Origin: Waterburya sp.
GTDB lineage: Bacteria > Cyanobacteriota > Cyanobacteriia > Cyanobacteriales > Xenococcaceae
Assembly: GCA_965217895.1 (NCBI GenBank)
Contig: CBDCJV010000001.1
Location: forward strand, 1 to 64,000
Length of the DNA stretch: 64,000 nt
Direction of reading: 5' to 3'
A program made the position numbers. Shown here piece after piece: positions 12,001-42,000 of this stretch (its first letter is position 1; every line of letters begins with the position of its first letter).

Positions 12001-15000
12001 TCTACGGTTTCCATAATAGATCGTTATTGCGACTCTTATAATGACTTGTTTTCTAATGACTTGTTTTCTGATGTCAGAAATTATGAATGTTTCAAATATT
12101 TACATCAAGGAATTATCTCATCAATCAAAAGAAAATCATTACCAGAGATAGCCAACTCGCGCGTTCCCTAGCGTCTTGAAAAGACGCGGGGTCGCTCGTC
12201 AAAGTAGTAGGAGTATCTTCATCTCAATCATTACATCATTTCGTAGCTAATTCACCTTGGTCAATAACAGAATTAAGAACTAGAAGATTAACTTTATTAA
12301 CTTTAACTAAAAATACTTTAAAAGAACGAAAAATCACGTTGGTAATTGACGAAACAGGAGATAGAAAAAAAGGAAAGAAAACCGATTATGTAGCTAGGCA
12401 GTATTTGGGAAGCGTAGGCAAAATAGACAACGGTATAGTATCGGTAAATGCTTATGGTGTTTATGAGAATATAACTTTTCCTCTATTGTTTAAAATCTTC
12501 AAACCTAAAGGAACATTAAAAGAGTCAGATACTTACAAAACAAAGATTGAGTTAGCATCTTCTATCGTGACTGAGCTAATAGAATTCGGATTTAAAATTG
12601 GATTAGTATTAGCCGATAGTTTATATGGCGAAGCTAGTTCATTTATTAGAACATTGGAGAAATATCAACTACCTTGGGTTGTGGCAATTAGAAGCAATCA
12701 TGGAGTCTGGCTGTCTCAAGAACAAAAGGTCAGAGCTAACAAATGGTGTAAATTTAAGAGAACTTTTAGCAACCAAAAAGCGGTGCGACCCCGCGCCGAC
12801 GTAAGGCGCAAGGGAACGCGCACCAAGACATCTGAAATAAGGTATATCAGAGAAATAATTGATGGTCGAAGAAATCATAGAACTTATTGGGAAATAACTA
12901 CCGACCCTGAAACTATGCCAGAGAATTCCACTTCTTTTGTAATGACTAATATTCAGTTAAGTCGGAACAAAATGAAACAAACTTTAGGTAATCTATACGG
13001 AATGAGAACATGGGTAGAATATGGATTTCGGCAATGCAAACAAGAATTAGGATGGACTGATTATCGATTTACTAGTTTTCAGGAAATTAATAAGTGGTGG
13101 GAAATAATTTTTTCAGCTTACTGGATGGTCAGTTCCCATTCCAAAGTCTTCTGTGACTTAAATCAATCTCAGACTTTATCTACTTCCAAAATTCCAAGTG
13201 AAAAATTCATTCCTAATTTTAATCTTCATCAACAATGGTCAAACGAAGGGGGATGGAAAACGACCTTAAACAATTTACGTCTAATTATTCAACCAACAAT
13301 TGTATTCTGGATGATTATGCCCTGGTTAGATGTTTTTCCCAATCGTTCTTTGCTACTTGGTTTTCATCAACTCATTGCTGTCATGAATCAATTTTATTTT
13401 TCTTTTCCTGATGGATAGATTTTGTTTTTGCTATTTTTAAATCTCGGAAAGTGACATAAGAGGGCTAACTTTAAAAAAAGATACATAATCATTTTTATTA
13501 AGCCTAGAATACTTTATGAAAGAAAAATTTAAAAACGGCAAAATAATAGCATTATCTAAGCTTTATAGACAATGCAATTGACTGACGAAAAACTTTGTTT
13601 AGCTTACATCGCTACTAATATCTTTTACTTGTTTAATAATGCCTTGGTCTTGGCGAATTTTAACAAAAACTATACAAAAGCAAAATTAGAATTATTGGAA
13701 GACGTAGAGTTAGAGGATTGCATTTTAAGTAAACACTGGGTAATAAGCTCTATATTTACTTGCTCTGTTATTTCAGCTTTACCGATACCAGTGGGCAGGA
13801 TAAATCTAACTTTGCCATTTTTGACCTTTTTATCTAAGGCTATTGTCTCCAAAATTCTTTCGATTTCCAGAGTCTTGGGTATTGAAGTTGGTAGACCAAC
13901 TTTTTCAATAAGAGCCAGTTGCCTTTGGGCTGCCGTTCTATTCCACCAACCAGAGGCAACCGCGATTTCTCCAGCAGCTATCATTCCTAATGCCACTGCT
14001 TCACCGTGAGTATATTGACGATAATTAGTTATGCTTTCAATAGCATGACCAACTGTATGTCCGTAATTTAGAAGAATTCGCAAACCAAAATCAGATTCTT
14101 TTTCATCGCGAACAACAATGTCTGCCTTAGCTTGACAAGAAAGAGTGAGAATAAGTTTTAATAATTGCGGTTGAATCGTCTTCTGTTGTAGGCTCTCAGC
14201 AGTTTCAAGTTCCTTGAATAAATCAGCATCCCAAATTACGCCGTATTTAATAACTTCGGCTAATCCAGAGCGAAATTCCCTGGATGGTAGTGTCGATAAT
14301 ACGTTGCGATCGACAATTACCAAGTTGGGCTGGTAAAAAGTGCCGATGAGGTTTTTGCCTTGAGGATGATTTACGCCAGTTTTTCCACCTATGGCAGAAT
14401 CTACCATACTCAGGAGACTAGTGGGAATCTGCACCAAACTTATGCCTCTCAACCAAGTAGATGCTGCAAATCCAGCTAAATCTCCAACTACGCCACCACC
14501 AAGAGCAATAATAGTTGAAGAACGTTCAAGGCGGTGTTCTAAAGCTGCATTGTAAATTTTCTGAATGGAAGAAAAGGTTTTAAATTGTTCTCCTGCATCT
14601 ATGAGAAGACTAGATACCTGAAATCCAGATTTTTCTAATGATTCAACAACTCGTTGACCATAATATTGAAATATTTCTGGATTAGATACAATTAAAACCT
14701 TTCGTTTTAAATCGCGAAACTGAATAAAATCAGTAACTAATAATTCTCCGATTGTATCTATACCATTTTCCGAAAAAATCACCTTATAAGGTTGATGGGG
14801 TAAATTGACGTGTACTATTTGCATGGGGTTAGCCTCGCTTTATCTGTTGCTAAGTTTGCACTCTAATTGATAATCAATTAGAGTGTTTGAGAATTTTGGG
14901 TTGTCTGAGATGATCGACTAAAGCATGAAGTGCTAAAAGATAACTATTGTGTTTGAAACCGCTAATTTGCCCAATAGCTACAGCAGAAATGAAGGAGTCA

Positions 15001-39000: not shown

Positions 39001-42000
39001 CTTTTAAACCCACCGCCACTATCGGTAAAGAACAGCATACCGTTACTAAATCAGGTGAATCAACAACTTTAGCTGCTAAAGGCAGACACGATCCTTGTGT
39101 ATTACCTAGAGCTGTTCCTATGGTTGAAGCTATGGTAGCTCTAGTCTTATGCGATCATCTGCTGCGCCATCATGCTCAATGTAAACTAATGTAGTTTTTA
39201 ACATATGGATAGACAACTAAGACAAAGCAACATTTATCTAATTGGAATGATGGGATCGGGAAAAACCACCGTTGGTAAGTTACTCGCCGAGAAATTAGAT
39301 TATTGTTTTTTTGATATCGACGTGGCAATTGAAAAATTAGCCCAAAAAACTATTACTGAGATTTTTGCTATAGAAGGAGAAGCAAGATTTCGCGAATTAG
39401 AAAGTCAAACTTTGAGAAAGATATCTACTTATCACCGAAGTGCGATCGCAACTGGTGGTGGAATCGTTCAAAGACCTGAAAACTGGAATTATCTTCGTAC
39501 TGGCTCGATCGTTTGGCTTGATGCTGACTTAAATTTACTCAATCGAAGACTAGCGGACGATAGCAGTAGACCTCTAGCCAATCAACTCGAATCATTATTA
39601 GCAACTCGCCGCTCTCTTTATGCCCAAGCCGATCTACATATCGCCATTAAGTCAGAACAAACTCCAGAAGATCTTGTCACTGAAATTATTGATTTACGCA
39701 CTCGAAGAGCTAGTTAATTCTAATAGTTTAGCAGTTTGAGCAAATTGCGTCCCACAGGTAATACAAATATAGTTATTCATTAATACTTCTCAATTTTTGA
39801 GCTTGATTGCTACTTCTCCAACTCGGCTTCCCAAAGCACTAGCCATTTCTAAATCTTCCGACTTTGGCTCAAGTTCACCTTTTGCCCCTGCAATTGTCGT
39901 CGGACCATAGGGTGTGCCTCCTCTCGCTTCGGTGTGAATCATGCCAGGGACAGAATACGGTACGCCCACGATAATCATGCCTAAATGAATCAGCGGCACC
40001 ATCATCGTGAGTAGGGTGGTTTCTTGACCACCATGAGTGCTGGCTGTAGAAATGAAAACACCTGCTGGCTTGCCTTCCATTTCGCCATTAAGCCAAAGGC
40101 TGGTCATTGAATCAAATAGCTGTTTAAGTTGAGATGACATATTTCCAAAGCGAGTTGGCGTACCAAAAATAACCGCGTCAGCCGAACGTAAATCATCTAA
40201 AGAACAGATAGAAATATCCTGCTGCTGTTCCCAGATCTTTTGAGCAGCTTCATTACCGTCGATCGCCTTTTGCTTGACTTGCTCAAATTCTTCTACGCGA
40301 CGGAAGACAACTTCCACGCCAGGAATTGTCTTTGCCCCTTTTTCAATGGCTCGCGCTAGCTCTAAAGTGTGACCATAAAGAGAATAGTAAACGATTAAAA
40401 CTTTAACGGGAGTTTGGATAGACATAATAGATTGGGGTAAATGGTTTGACTGAGATGGGAACTATTAACTAGTTGGACAAAATTAAATTCAACGGTAACG
40501 CTCGAAGTCATAAAGGACTTGTGCTAAAGCATACCGCTTTGAGACCGAAGGTAAGGCGCATAGTTCGCCGCAACTAATCCTTTAGGGCATATCTGCATGT
40601 AGTCAGAAGTCAGAAGTTCCAAAGCGAAAATAGGATACATTTAAGGTTTTTCAGGCTTGGAAATTGCAGCAATCGCATCTATTTCAAACAACATACCATC
40701 CCCCGCTAGTCGAGGCACGGGTATTAAAGTACTAGCTGGTTTGATTAGATCGTCTGGCCACATGGCATTTCGTTCTGCTGAAATCAGCTTCTGTTTTTCA
40801 GCATCGTGATTAACCGAAAGTACCGTAATTTTCACGACCTGCTCTGGAGTTGCGTCTGCTGCTGCTAAAGCCTTACGGAGACTAGTAAAAGCTTGCTTAA
40901 GTTGAGCTTCAAAATCACCTAGATTTCCCTGTTCATCTCGACCACCTTGTCCTGCAATAAAAATGAGAGTTCGATCGGGAGGTATGATCGCAATGTTGGT
41001 AAAGCCGAAATTAGACGGACTTCCCAGTTCGGGTGGATTGATACGCTGTATTTCTTGAGACATAATAAATTTGAGAATTATATTTTTATACTTTGCGTGT
41101 TGATTTAGCAGAGGAAGAACCTTTAGATGCATCTTTGTTTTTAGGAGAGCTAGCCTGCTGCCCAATAACAACGCTAACTAATATAGTTGCCACCCCAATT
41201 AGTTGAATCGCTGTAAAAGTCTCCTGTAAAAAAACATATCCGATCAACGTTGCGACCACAGGACTTAGTAGCCCCAAATATGAGACAGCCGTAGGGTTAA
41301 GCTTACTAATTCCGCGAAACCAAAGTGCGTAGGCAAGTCCAGTGCCAATCAGTCCTAGATAGATAAAGCCCCACAAATTAATCCTCGTCAGTTCGGCAAA
41401 TGTTCCCTCGGTTATTAAAGCAATTGGCAGCAGAATTAGTCCACCGACGGTTAGCTGCCATGCGGTAAAGACCATTAGAGAAACCCTAGGCTTCCATCGT
41501 TTTACCAGCACAGTACCCAGTCCCATAGCGACCGCACCACCTAGTGCTGCAATAATGCCGATAGTGTCAAGCTTGGCGCCAGGTTCGAGTACTAATAGAC
41601 CAACGCCAATGAATCCTGCGATCGCGGCAAAAATAAATATTTTAGAAGGTTTTACGCTCAATATCTGCCAGGCGAACAGTCCAACTAACAAGGGTTGAAT
41701 CGCCCCCGCTGTAGCTGCTACACCCCCAGGAAGGCGATAGGCTGCCACAAACAACAGTGCTTGGAAAACGCCAATATTTAGACCGCCCAAAATCAAGATC
41801 TTCCACCACCAGTCACCTTTAGGTAGCTTTCTCAGACCAATAGTGAGTAAAAGTCCAATGGGAAGCGATCGCATTGAAGCCACTAATAACGGATGGTTAG
41901 GCGGTAAGAATTCTGTCGCCACAGCGTAGGTCGTTCCCCAGGAAATCGGTGCTAAAGCTGTTAGCAGTATATTAGATAAACGACCTGTAGGAGCATTCAT

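What a model noticed while it worked through the whole genome (the two positions that open the first line are those of the whole stretch)
13670..39717. hs_bmp-type polybrominated phenol/diphenyl-ether gene cluster with its own shikimate pathway
A cluster on C1 encodes orthologues of the three core enzymes of polybrominated diphenyl ether (PBDE) synthesis (Bmp5 flavin brominase g00022, Bmp6 chorismate lyase g00020, Bmp7 coupling P450 g00021) beside an O-methyltransferase and a second, complete set of shikimate-pathway genes. I read it as a PBDE/MeO-PBDE (or polybrominated biphenyl) factory in a free-living or seaweed-associated Pleurocapsalean cyanobacterium that feeds itself chorismate. If true, Waterburya-type epiphytes are an overlooked source of the natural OH-/MeO-PBDEs found on seaweeds and in marine food webs, so far traced genetically only to sponge-symbiotic Hormoscilla and to gammaproteobacteria.
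Evidence so far: g00022 (515 aa) is 77% identical over its whole length to the 'flavin-dependent halogenase' of Hormoscilla spongeliae SP4 and 33% to Bmp5 of Pseudoalteromonas and Marinomonas; g00021 P450 50% to AetB and 35% to Bmp7; g00020 chorismate pyruvate-lyase family. Same-strand block g00012-g00022: DHQ synthase, DHQ dehydratase II, PEP synthase, OMT, SRPBCC protein, DAHP synthase, TauE exporter; 10 kb on: EPSP synthase, chorismate synthase, shikimate kinase. Orthologues of g00022 at >=67% identity in 6 of 60 other Xenococcaceae genomes, 1 of them among the 38 Waterburya.
(Added by a program. Inside this text positions count along the whole contig: contig position 1 is position 1 of the stretch shown here. 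"Call 12" and the like, gene names such as g00115 and contig names such as C1 are that model's own, and its searches are not shown. The text may have been shortened before it was handed on; [...] marks where a part breaks off. The agent that wrote the report below was given it as the finding of a first reader that could run no searches.)

Follow-up and report, generated by a model that had tools for sequence, protein, structure and literature searches.

The report
Cyanobacterial bromophenol-coupling gene island
This cyanobacterium carries an intact set of genes that most likely makes natural brominated aromatic compounds akin to flame-retardant pollutants; the gene set is a known kind, but this copy has a different coupling enzyme, extra precursor-supply genes and a transporter that may import bromide.

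Summary
The core is real. A brominase (77% to Hormoscilla hs_Bmp5; candidate catalytic Lys270 aligns with Bmp5 Lys277), a coupling-type P450 and a chorismate lyase lie in bmp5-7-6 order on an IS-flanked island. Most likely product: a dimer of 2,4-dibromophenol (hydroxy-diphenyl ether or biphenyldiol). No chemistry was seen.

Corrections: (1) the shikimate set is 6 of 7 steps plus PEP synthase, with no aroE; its aroA belongs to a clade that travels with halogenase clusters. (2) The O-methyltransferase is a broken half-gene, so MeO-PBDEs are unsupported. (3) The P450 is 58% to hs_Bmp7 and sits in a sister subclade; other cyanobacteria hold closer copies (78-87%). (4) Such clusters in Symploca, Nodularia and Leptolyngbya are already in print (PMC10579414). 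(5) Only 1 of 38 same-genus genomes has the brominase, and the habitat is not shown.

Newest lead: the cluster's TauE-family transporter lies beside a halogenase-like gene in 13 of 14 family-level matches, and beside four halogenase types in metagenomes, which suggests bromide uptake. Verdict: new member of a known kind, moderate interest.

The parts
24564..26111 (-). Single-component flavin-dependent brominase, Bmp5/hs_Bmp5 type (515 aa from the ATG at 26111); Lys270 aligns with Bmp5 Lys277
23050..24507 (-). Cytochrome P450 of the Bmp7/AetB aryl-coupling group; sister subclade to hs_Bmp7 (58%); haem Cys and ExxR motifs intact
22398..22946 (-). Chorismate pyruvate-lyase (Bmp6 role), a second copy besides the one at C2:3632982; 52% to the Hormoscilla cluster copies
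20910..21992 (-). 360-aa TauE/SafE-family membrane protein of a subfamily linked to halogenase genes; candidate bromide importer or product exporter
19728..20834 (-). DAHP synthase, second copy (72% to the C2 copy)
19014..19601 (-). SRPBCC/START protein, 55% to the SRPBCC gene next to the P450 in the aet cluster; present in several related clusters
18416..19039 (-). O-methyltransferase remnant: C-terminal half only, SAM-binding motif lost; probable pseudogene
15871..18303 (-). PEP synthase, 85-86% to copies in related clusters, 55% to the own C2 copy
15382..15834 (-). Small RmlC-like cupin, also in the closest metagenome cluster (87%); role unclear
14874..15425 (-). Type II dehydroquinate dehydratase, second copy (53%)
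13670..14824 (-). 3-dehydroquinate synthase, second copy (58%)
26530..30147 (+). Large WD40-repeat protein divergent from the brominase; possible regulator (a WD40 gene lies beside aroC in the Symploca cluster, 41%); membership uncertain, 60% paralogue on C2
30160..35872 (-). ABC-2 exporter: two permeases, a double ATPase and a HlyD adaptor; the same type follows the Nostoc cluster; probable product export
36057..36383 (-). Ribbon-helix-helix protein divergent from aroA; possible regulator
36713..38059 (+). EPSP synthase of the cluster-linked clade (80-86% to cluster copies, 65-67% to housekeeping copies)
38106..39194 (+). Chorismate synthase, second copy (86% to the copy at C1:67920-69017)
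39205..39717 (+). Shikimate kinase, second copy (76% to the copy in the related Xenococcaceae cluster, 56% to the own C2 copy)
11829..13468 (+). IS701-family element with inverted ends at the left edge of the island; near-identical copy on C2
43518..46535 (.). Transposase fragments, tyrosine-integrase remnant and an IS at the right edge

Best explanation
A horizontally moved chromosomal island that makes a brominated phenol dimer. Inferred steps: PEP synthase and DAHP synthase feed extra carbon into a duplicate shikimate route, which borrows the single chromosomal aroE. The lyase turns chorismate into 4-hydroxybenzoate. The brominase brominates and decarboxylates it to 2,4-dibromophenol (some 2,4,6-tribromophenol). 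The lone P450 couples two rings by a radical step, probably with electrons from the cell's own ferredoxin, since none is encoded here. The ABC/HlyD system exports the product. With no hs_Bmp12-type hydroxylase, no second brominase, no sulfotransferase and a broken methyltransferase in the island, the product should be a simple unmethylated dimer: a hydroxy-tetrabromodiphenyl ether (my estimate about 2 in 3 within this reading) or the C-C biphenyldiol (about 1 in 3). Shown: genes, order, homology, motifs, co-occurrence. Inferred: every reaction, the product and expression.
For: Brominase 77% to hs_Bmp5, in a 27-row clade (SH-aLRT 95) with both Hormoscilla halogenases; 11 of the 14 loci in that clade have a chorismate lyase nearby, against 2 of 12 loci in the other cyanobacterial clade. 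Lys270 aligns with Lys277 of the P. luteoviolacea protein, the lysine that PMC10306068 proposes as catalytic. Order brominase-P450-lyase as in Hormoscilla (L064, L065). The P450's best PDB match is the polybrominated aromatic compounds synthase, and it lacks the acid-alcohol pair that the hs_Bmp12-type hydroxylase has. PMC6520454 names these three genes as the minimum for PBDEs; PMC10579414 shows three such genes give tetrabromobiphenyldiol in E. coli. Supply genes conserved with related clusters and single-copy in two single-contig congeners that lack the brominase (aroA, aroC). Flanks shared with close relative G060 stop at 11791 and resume at 48010, apart from one 1.1-kb piece.
Against: No chemistry and no expression data. 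Lys270 is kept in 70 of 70 full-length representatives down to 26% identity, so it does not tell the substrate. Brominase relatives at 64-75% also occur without lyase or P450 in the locus (for example L008, L013, L016, L074). The P450 differs from hs_Bmp7 in the I-helix, F/G region and SRS6, so the product cannot be read off Hormoscilla. One gene of the island is already decayed, and IS elements flank it.
Confidence: 0.68

Rival explanations
1. The P450 works repeatedly or on mixed monomers and makes tri- or tetra-aryl ethers of the crossbyanol, bromoiesol or ambigol type rather than a simple dimer.
For: The window's P450 groups with P450s from clusters that hold two or three coupling P450s (L002, L015, and three Leptolyngbya SIO1D8 proteins on contigs of one length). 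Free-living cyanobacteria make such ethers (PMC11596561; PMC12210266). The large supply block suggests high flux.
Against: Only one coupling P450 here; the other P450s of the genome are 24-27% identical. Ambigols use two P450s (PMC9214053 table). No sulfotransferase in the island.
Confidence: 0.12
2. The island makes only bromophenol monomers, or is decaying and silent.
For: Five loci have brominase plus lyase without a coupling P450 (L006, L009, L023, L024, L073), so monomer-only systems probably exist. The methyltransferase is broken and IS elements flank the island. A Microbulbifer strain with all three genes is inactive because of a regulator lesion (PMC10579414).
Against: The P450 frame is intact with all haem motifs and is 93-94% identical to copies in L001 and L097. 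The core and supply genes are full length and most pass curated cut-offs.
Confidence: 0.12
3. The enzymes act on another phenol or halide, for example a dihydroxybenzoate drawn from dehydroshikimate (aroE is the one missing step), or chloride or iodide.
For: aroE is absent from the island. Bmp5 is proposed to accept dihydroxybenzoate (PMC7918430), and iodinated bromoiesols exist. A cupin and an SRPBCC protein of unknown role are in the block.
Against: aroK, aroA, aroC and the lyase, all downstream of aroE, are duplicated, which points to chorismate and 4-hydroxybenzoate. No dehydroshikimate dehydratase was seen among the island's proteins.
Confidence: 0.08

Closest known systems
hs_bmp cluster of Hormoscilla spongeliae (PMC6520454, passages; Agarwal 2017 seen only as cited)
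   Same: Order bmp5-bmp7-bmp6; brominase 75-77%, P450 57-58%, lyase 52%; no pyrrole genes; a HlyD/ABC exporter nearby.
   Different: P450 in a sister subclade with other active-site residues; no hs_Bmp12-type hydroxylase, no hs_Bmp18-type second halogenase, no sulfotransferase. Adds TauE, SRPBCC, ppsA and six shikimate genes, which the Hormoscilla loci fetched do not show.
bmp / bp607-610 clusters of Pseudoalteromonas, Marinomonas and Microbulbifer (PMC7918430, PMC10579414)
   Same: Same three-enzyme logic; brominase 33-34% with Lys277 kept; the Microbulbifer cluster also has its own DAHP synthase.
   Different: No bmp1-4 pyrrole module, no Bmp8, no ferredoxin or reductase genes in the island; a much larger supply block.
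Uncharacterised tandem clusters of Symploca, Nodularia and Leptolyngbya (PMC10579414 section 7)
   Same: The Symploca SIO3C6 cluster has the same order: brominase, P450, lyase, TauE, DAHP synthase, SRPBCC, ppsA, exporter, aroA, aroC.
   Different: Symploca has two P450s, this island one. The paper's eight genera include no Pleurocapsales, although Pleurocapsa, Xenococcus and Waterburya genomes are in its Table S3, and the passages read do not discuss the supply block or TauE.
aet cluster of Aetokthonos hydrillicola, and the ambigol cluster (gene list recalled)
   Same: P450 50% to the aet P450, SRPBCC 55% to its neighbour. Ambigol P450s also form C-C and C-O bonds; that the ambigol cluster has a lyase and DAHP synthase is recalled.
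   Different: aet works on tryptophan-derived indoles with other halogenases (AetF aligns only over the N-terminal 134 residues, probability 23%). Ambigols are chlorinated.

Membership tests
bmp/hs_bmp phenol-coupling cluster | Bmp5-type single-component flavin brominase | tested here: met
   77% to hs_Bmp5, 33-34% to gammaproteobacterial Bmp5-group proteins, FMO-like Pfam
bmp/hs_bmp phenol-coupling cluster | Lysine equivalent to Bmp5 Lys277 (proposed catalytic, PMC10306068) | tested here: met
   Lys270 in the same column; kept across the wider family too, so it is not specific for phenols
bmp/hs_bmp phenol-coupling cluster | Dedicated chorismate lyase in the cluster | tested here: met
   PF01947; a separate copy lies on C2
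bmp/hs_bmp phenol-coupling cluster | Bmp7-group coupling P450 next to the brominase | tested here: met
   Best PDB match 9ms3; 58% to hs_Bmp7; within the 51-row clade (SH-aLRT 100) that holds hs_Bmp7 and excludes the aet P450
hs_Bmp7 subclade | P450 groups with hs_Bmp7 and shares its active-site residues | tested here: not met
   Falls in a separate 24-row subclade (98), hs_Bmp7 in a 13-row one (98); I-helix, F/G and SRS6 differ. hs_Bmp7 was identified by its place next to hs_bmp5.
bmp/hs_bmp phenol-coupling cluster | Production of brominated diphenyl ethers or biphenyls | not testable with these tools
   Needs chemistry
MeO-PBDE producer | Intact O-methyltransferase in the cluster | tested here: not met
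   Half-gene, SAM motif lost; three full-length paralogues on C2 could act in trans, untested
Complete second shikimate pathway | All seven steps duplicated | tested here: not met
   Six steps duplicated; aroE single, on C2
Expanded hs_bmp (clade Ia / GUM202 type) | hs_Bmp12 hydroxylase and second halogenase between bmp7 and bmp6 | tested here: not met
   None in the island; a 61% hs_Bmp12-like P450 lies far away on C2

The most novel reading that the evidence does not exclude
The island is a self-provisioning bromination unit whose 360-aa TauE/SafE protein is a dedicated bromide importer, a kind of transporter my searches did not find described. The reason is that this subfamily sits beside brominases of unrelated types that act on phenols, indoles and probably tyrosine-derived substrates, which share bromide but not a product. 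Its P450 would define a second coupling subclade with its own regiochemistry, making benthic Pleurocapsales a genetic source of natural bromodiphenyl ethers or biphenyls outside sponges.
Probability: 0.2. Interest if true: 0.82.

Novelty: new member of a known kind. Interest (0 to 1): 0.45.

Why it matters
A 2022 review says the main producers and pathway of marine OH-/MeO-PBDEs are still unclear (PMC9781326). An intact cluster in a near-complete genome (99.89%) of a lineage not listed before as a carrier gives a testable producer. Only one coupling P450 is present, so this is a clean system for asking what sets C-O versus C-C coupling. The TauE link gives a direct test of how cells supply bromide to brominases against a large excess of chloride, and a possible marker gene for mining brominated products. 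The ecological claim is smaller than first read: the cluster is rare in the genus and related clusters were already noticed.

Tried and rejected
Structure predictions for the brominase (pLDDT 55) and TauE (pLDDT 50) were too poor to use; no fold search was run. Profile alignment to AetF did not reach the lysine region. A first P450 tree of 127 rows did not finish; the 65-row tree uses a chosen subset. Ten representatives looked up for Bmp5 names gave none; named ones came. The plasmid search gave one 33% Vibrio hit in an unrelated context. Promoter and terminator scans were at chance level (28 against 30; 11 against 12). Earlier findings of this scan: none returned. Rejected: C1 as a plasmid (it carries pnp, ftsH, a hisF-like gene and the other aroC); the short methyltransferase as an assembly error; the 73% Aetokthonos brominase relative as an aet gene (it lies on another contig beside an integrase). 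No exact empty site was found, because the two flanks lie far apart in G060. PMC10919026 on seaweed microbiomes has no mention of bmp or cyanobacteria.
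Full report
WHAT IS THERE. The window is the first 64 kb of contig C1 (86,927 bases) of a 5.29-Mb, two-contig genome, 99.89% complete. C1 is chromosomal: it carries pnp, ftsH, a hisF-like gene and a second aroC. On the minus strand, 26111 to 13670, lie a flavin monooxygenase-like protein, a P450, a chorismate pyruvate-lyase, a TauE/SafE protein, DAHP synthase, an SRPBCC protein, a methyltransferase remnant, PEP synthase, a cupin, dehydroquinate dehydratase II and dehydroquinate synthase. 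Then come a WD40 protein, an ABC-2/HlyD exporter, a ribbon-helix-helix protein and aroA-aroC-aroK. An IS701 element with inverted ends stands at 11829-13468, and integrase and transposase remnants at 43518-46535. Close relative G060 (about 91% DNA identity) shares the flanks up to 11791 and from 48010, plus 1.1 kb near 41.7-42.8 kb, and lacks the brominase. I read the block as an acquired island; no exact empty site was found.

THE BROMINASE. The 515-aa protein is 77% identical over its length to AQU14204.1, the flavin-dependent halogenase of Hormoscilla spongeliae SP4. It is 33% and 34% identical to the P. luteoviolacea and M. mediterranea proteins of the Bmp5 group. Its Lys270 falls in the column of P. 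luteoviolacea Lys277, which PMC10306068 (passages) proposes as the counterpart of the catalytic Lys258 of AetF. That lysine is kept in 55 of 56 tree rows and in 70 of 70 full-length representatives (the first 70 of those 480-600 aa among 150 listed), so it does not tell the substrate. In a 56-row tree (quick method) the protein sits in a 27-row clade (SH-aLRT 95) with hs_Bmp5 and the second GUM202 halogenase. Eleven of the 14 loci in that clade have a chorismate lyase nearby; in the other large cyanobacterial clade (Moorena, Okeania, Dapis, Coleofasciculus and others) 2 of 12 do and none has a coupling P450. So the many 62-80% homologues are not all bmp clusters, and this one is on the bmp side.

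THE P450. Its best match among solved structures is 9ms3, 'Polybrominated aromatic compounds synthase', E 1.2e-87, ahead of CYP1A1 at 1e-60 (that this is Bmp7 is recalled). It is 58% identical to the Hormoscilla P450 encoded next to hs_bmp5, taken here as hs_Bmp7 by position, and 50% to the P450 of the Aetokthonos aet cluster (the aet gene labels are my reading of Pfam matches, lengths and PMC10306068, and the AetB and AetC names come from no call). In a 65-row tree (a chosen subset of the 120 listed hits plus locus proteins) it lies in a 24-row subclade (98), sister to the 13-row subclade (98) of hs_Bmp7. Closer hs_Bmp7 relatives occur in other cyanobacteria: 87% in L003 and L004, 83% in L007, 78% in L005. 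The window's enzyme differs in the I-helix (AAGTQLP against AGAGGGLP), the F/G region and SRS6; both lack the acid-alcohol pair present in the hs_Bmp12-type P450. It is a coupling enzyme by family, but its regiochemistry cannot be borrowed from Hormoscilla.

THE SUPPLY GENES. Each has another copy in the genome: aroB 58%, aroQ 53%, ppsA 55%, DAHP synthase 72%, aroA 65%, aroC 86%, aroK 56%, and the lyase family has a second member on C2. Shikimate dehydrogenase is single and on C2, so the set is six of seven steps. The block is part of the cluster. In the genome of L004 the core is followed by ppsA (86%), an exporter, aroA (83%), aroC (88%), aroK (76%) and a second aroB; in Symploca (L015) by ppsA (85%), an exporter, aroA (80%) and aroC (91%). 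Metagenome locus L097 repeats the window's order down to aroB. In a 12-row tree the window's aroA forms a 100/100 clade with four copies from halogenase clusters, apart from seven others, including the own C2 copy, two congeners, Moorena and Hormoscilla. Two caveats: the Symploca MAG showed only the cluster copy of aroA and aroC, and three of five genomes gave no aroA match, a gene they should have, so these searches can miss copies. A DAHP synthase in such a cluster is known from Microbulbifer (PMC10579414).

THE METHYLTRANSFERASE. It matches only residues of about 158-361 of full-length relatives, with no trace of the N-terminal half in 18201-19800. The glycine-rich SAM motif is replaced. 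It is absent between SRPBCC and ppsA in L097 and L015. A Logan contig of run X1 equals 13439-27000 with no difference (possibly the source sample). It is a pseudogene, and MeO-PBDE synthesis is not supported from this island.

DISTRIBUTION. The brominase is in 6 of 60 other genomes of the family and 1 of 38 of the genus. Of 75 genome loci returned (best 80 of 176 confirmed stretches), 29 are cyanobacterial or fall in the cyanobacterial clade. Nine of those 29 show brominase, coupling P450 and lyase together, two of them Hormoscilla; five show brominase and lyase only. Runs X3 and X6, from two other studies, hold related clusters at about 89-92% DNA identity. No call tells the genus name or the habitat.

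THE TauE LEAD. The 360-aa TauE protein has no close paralogue in the genome. At family level it gave 14 matches in 11 of 61 genomes. Five are in bmp-type clusters, the window included. I fetched the other nine: eight have a halogenase-like gene in the locus (Trp_halogenase-type at 33-76% to the L024 reference, AetA-like 25-27%, Bmp5-like 29-35%), and the ninth has lyase and P450 at a contig end. Only 0.8% of the own genome lies within 6 kb of such a gene. In metagenomes (best 80 of 229 confirmed), 31 of 80 loci have a halogenase hit, and 23 of the 39 loci of 7 kb or more. Among the 45 loci at 59% identity or more, 34 have a halogenase or a lyase, P450 or tryptophanase marker and 11 have none. 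Partners include Bmp5-like, AetF-like (63-64%), AetA-like (64%) and Trp_halogenase-type genes, next to phenol, indole and prephenate pathway genes. The brominated leptochelin cluster also lists a TauE gene, and its titre rises with bromide (PMC11240249, passages; I did not test whether it is this subfamily). Different products with a shared halide point to halide import. Against: many loci come from one series of assemblies and some repeat genomes already counted; low-identity hits may not be halogenases; TauE is near only 11 of 75 brominase loci and is not seen in the Hormoscilla, Nostoc or aet loci; the family is annotated as sulfite export. Search one search listed no paper on this link in the 20 results shown of 51.

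LITERATURE. PMC6520454 (passages) defines the three-gene core, hs_Bmp12 and hs_Bmp18. PMC10579414 (passages, section 7 whole, supplement search) reports tandem clusters in Hormoscilla, Symploca, Nodularia and Leptolyngbya and notes extra P450s in cyanobacteria; its eight genera include no Pleurocapsales; Fig. 3D was not visible. PMC8406957 (passages) mined cyanobacterial genomes with Bmp5. PMC11596561 and PMC12210266 (passages) list crossbyanols and bromoiesols from non-sponge cyanobacteria. Also read as passages: PMC7918430, PMC7313196, PMC9214053, PMC10919026, PMC9781326, PMC13519999, PMC13097137, PMC13083261. Agarwal 2014 and 2017, Duell 2020, Choi 2010 and Ebihara 2021 were seen only as cited. 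Searches listed no report of such a cluster in Pleurocapsales or of the shikimate block; the library lacks most subscription journals and bioRxiv supplements were closed.

VERDICT. It works like hs_bmp and meets the three defining gene features (0.68 for a simple bromophenol dimer, 0.12 for larger aryl ethers). It is a new member of a known kind, already glimpsed in free-living cyanobacteria. What adds interest is a lone P450 of an untested subclade, a conserved near-complete chorismate supply block, and the halogenase-linked TauE transporter. Interest 0.45.

Noticed in passing
L003, L004, L007 (brominase to lyase stretch): Xenococcaceae and Calothrix MAGs carry clusters laid out like the expanded Hormoscilla GUM202 one (bmp5, bmp7 at 83-87%, second halogenase, hs_bmp12-type P450, bmp6); L004 adds a sulfotransferase. 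They are closer PBDE candidates than the window.
   Followed up: partly
L005:10001-15194: A Nostoc MAG has brominase (77%), a P450 78% identical to hs_Bmp7, lyase and SRPBCC, followed by an NMT1-type ABC uptake system and the same ABC-2 exporter type as the window.
   Followed up: partly
L099, L115, L119, L125, L164, L167: Metagenome contigs with relatives of the aet genes (AetA-like 64%, P450 47-49%, tryptophanase 79-84%, AetF-like 63-64%) beside the TauE gene: probable bromoindole clusters outside Aetokthonos.
   Followed up: no
L126, L129, L130, L132, L176: TauE with a Trp_halogenase-type gene and/or chorismate mutase and prephenate dehydrogenase; the contig of L176 also has a cluster-type aroA. 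Probably halogenated-tyrosine clusters with the same supply logic.
   Followed up: partly
L008:6716-8260: Aetokthonos hydrillicola has an orphan brominase relative (73%) beside an integrase, away from the aet cluster.
   Followed up: no
L025-L063: Many Bacteroidota and other genomes hold 55-60% relatives of the brominase, mostly without lyase or P450; a few have TauE or lyase next door.
   Followed up: no
G000:C2:2065582-2068740, C2:195154-196284, C2:2036530-2037867: Two AetA-like genes (24-26%), one Trp_halogenase-like gene (30%) and an hs_Bmp12-like P450 (61%) elsewhere in the own genome.
   Followed up: no
window 4334-11799: Block of a short TauE, Usp, sodium:alanine symporter, alanine dehydrogenase, class III aminotransferase and a DmmA-like protein, shared with G060; looks like amine catabolism.
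   Followed up: no
window 42002-42143: Three copies of a 38-nt repeat between divergent EamA and MarR genes, possibly MarR operators.
   Followed up: no
window 39790-40425: WrbA-like flavoprotein converging on aroK, with no paralogue found in the genome; might detoxify quinone by-products.
   Followed up: no
window 1-167: Identical to the first 167 bases of G060:C1 on the opposite strand; unexplained.
   Followed up: no
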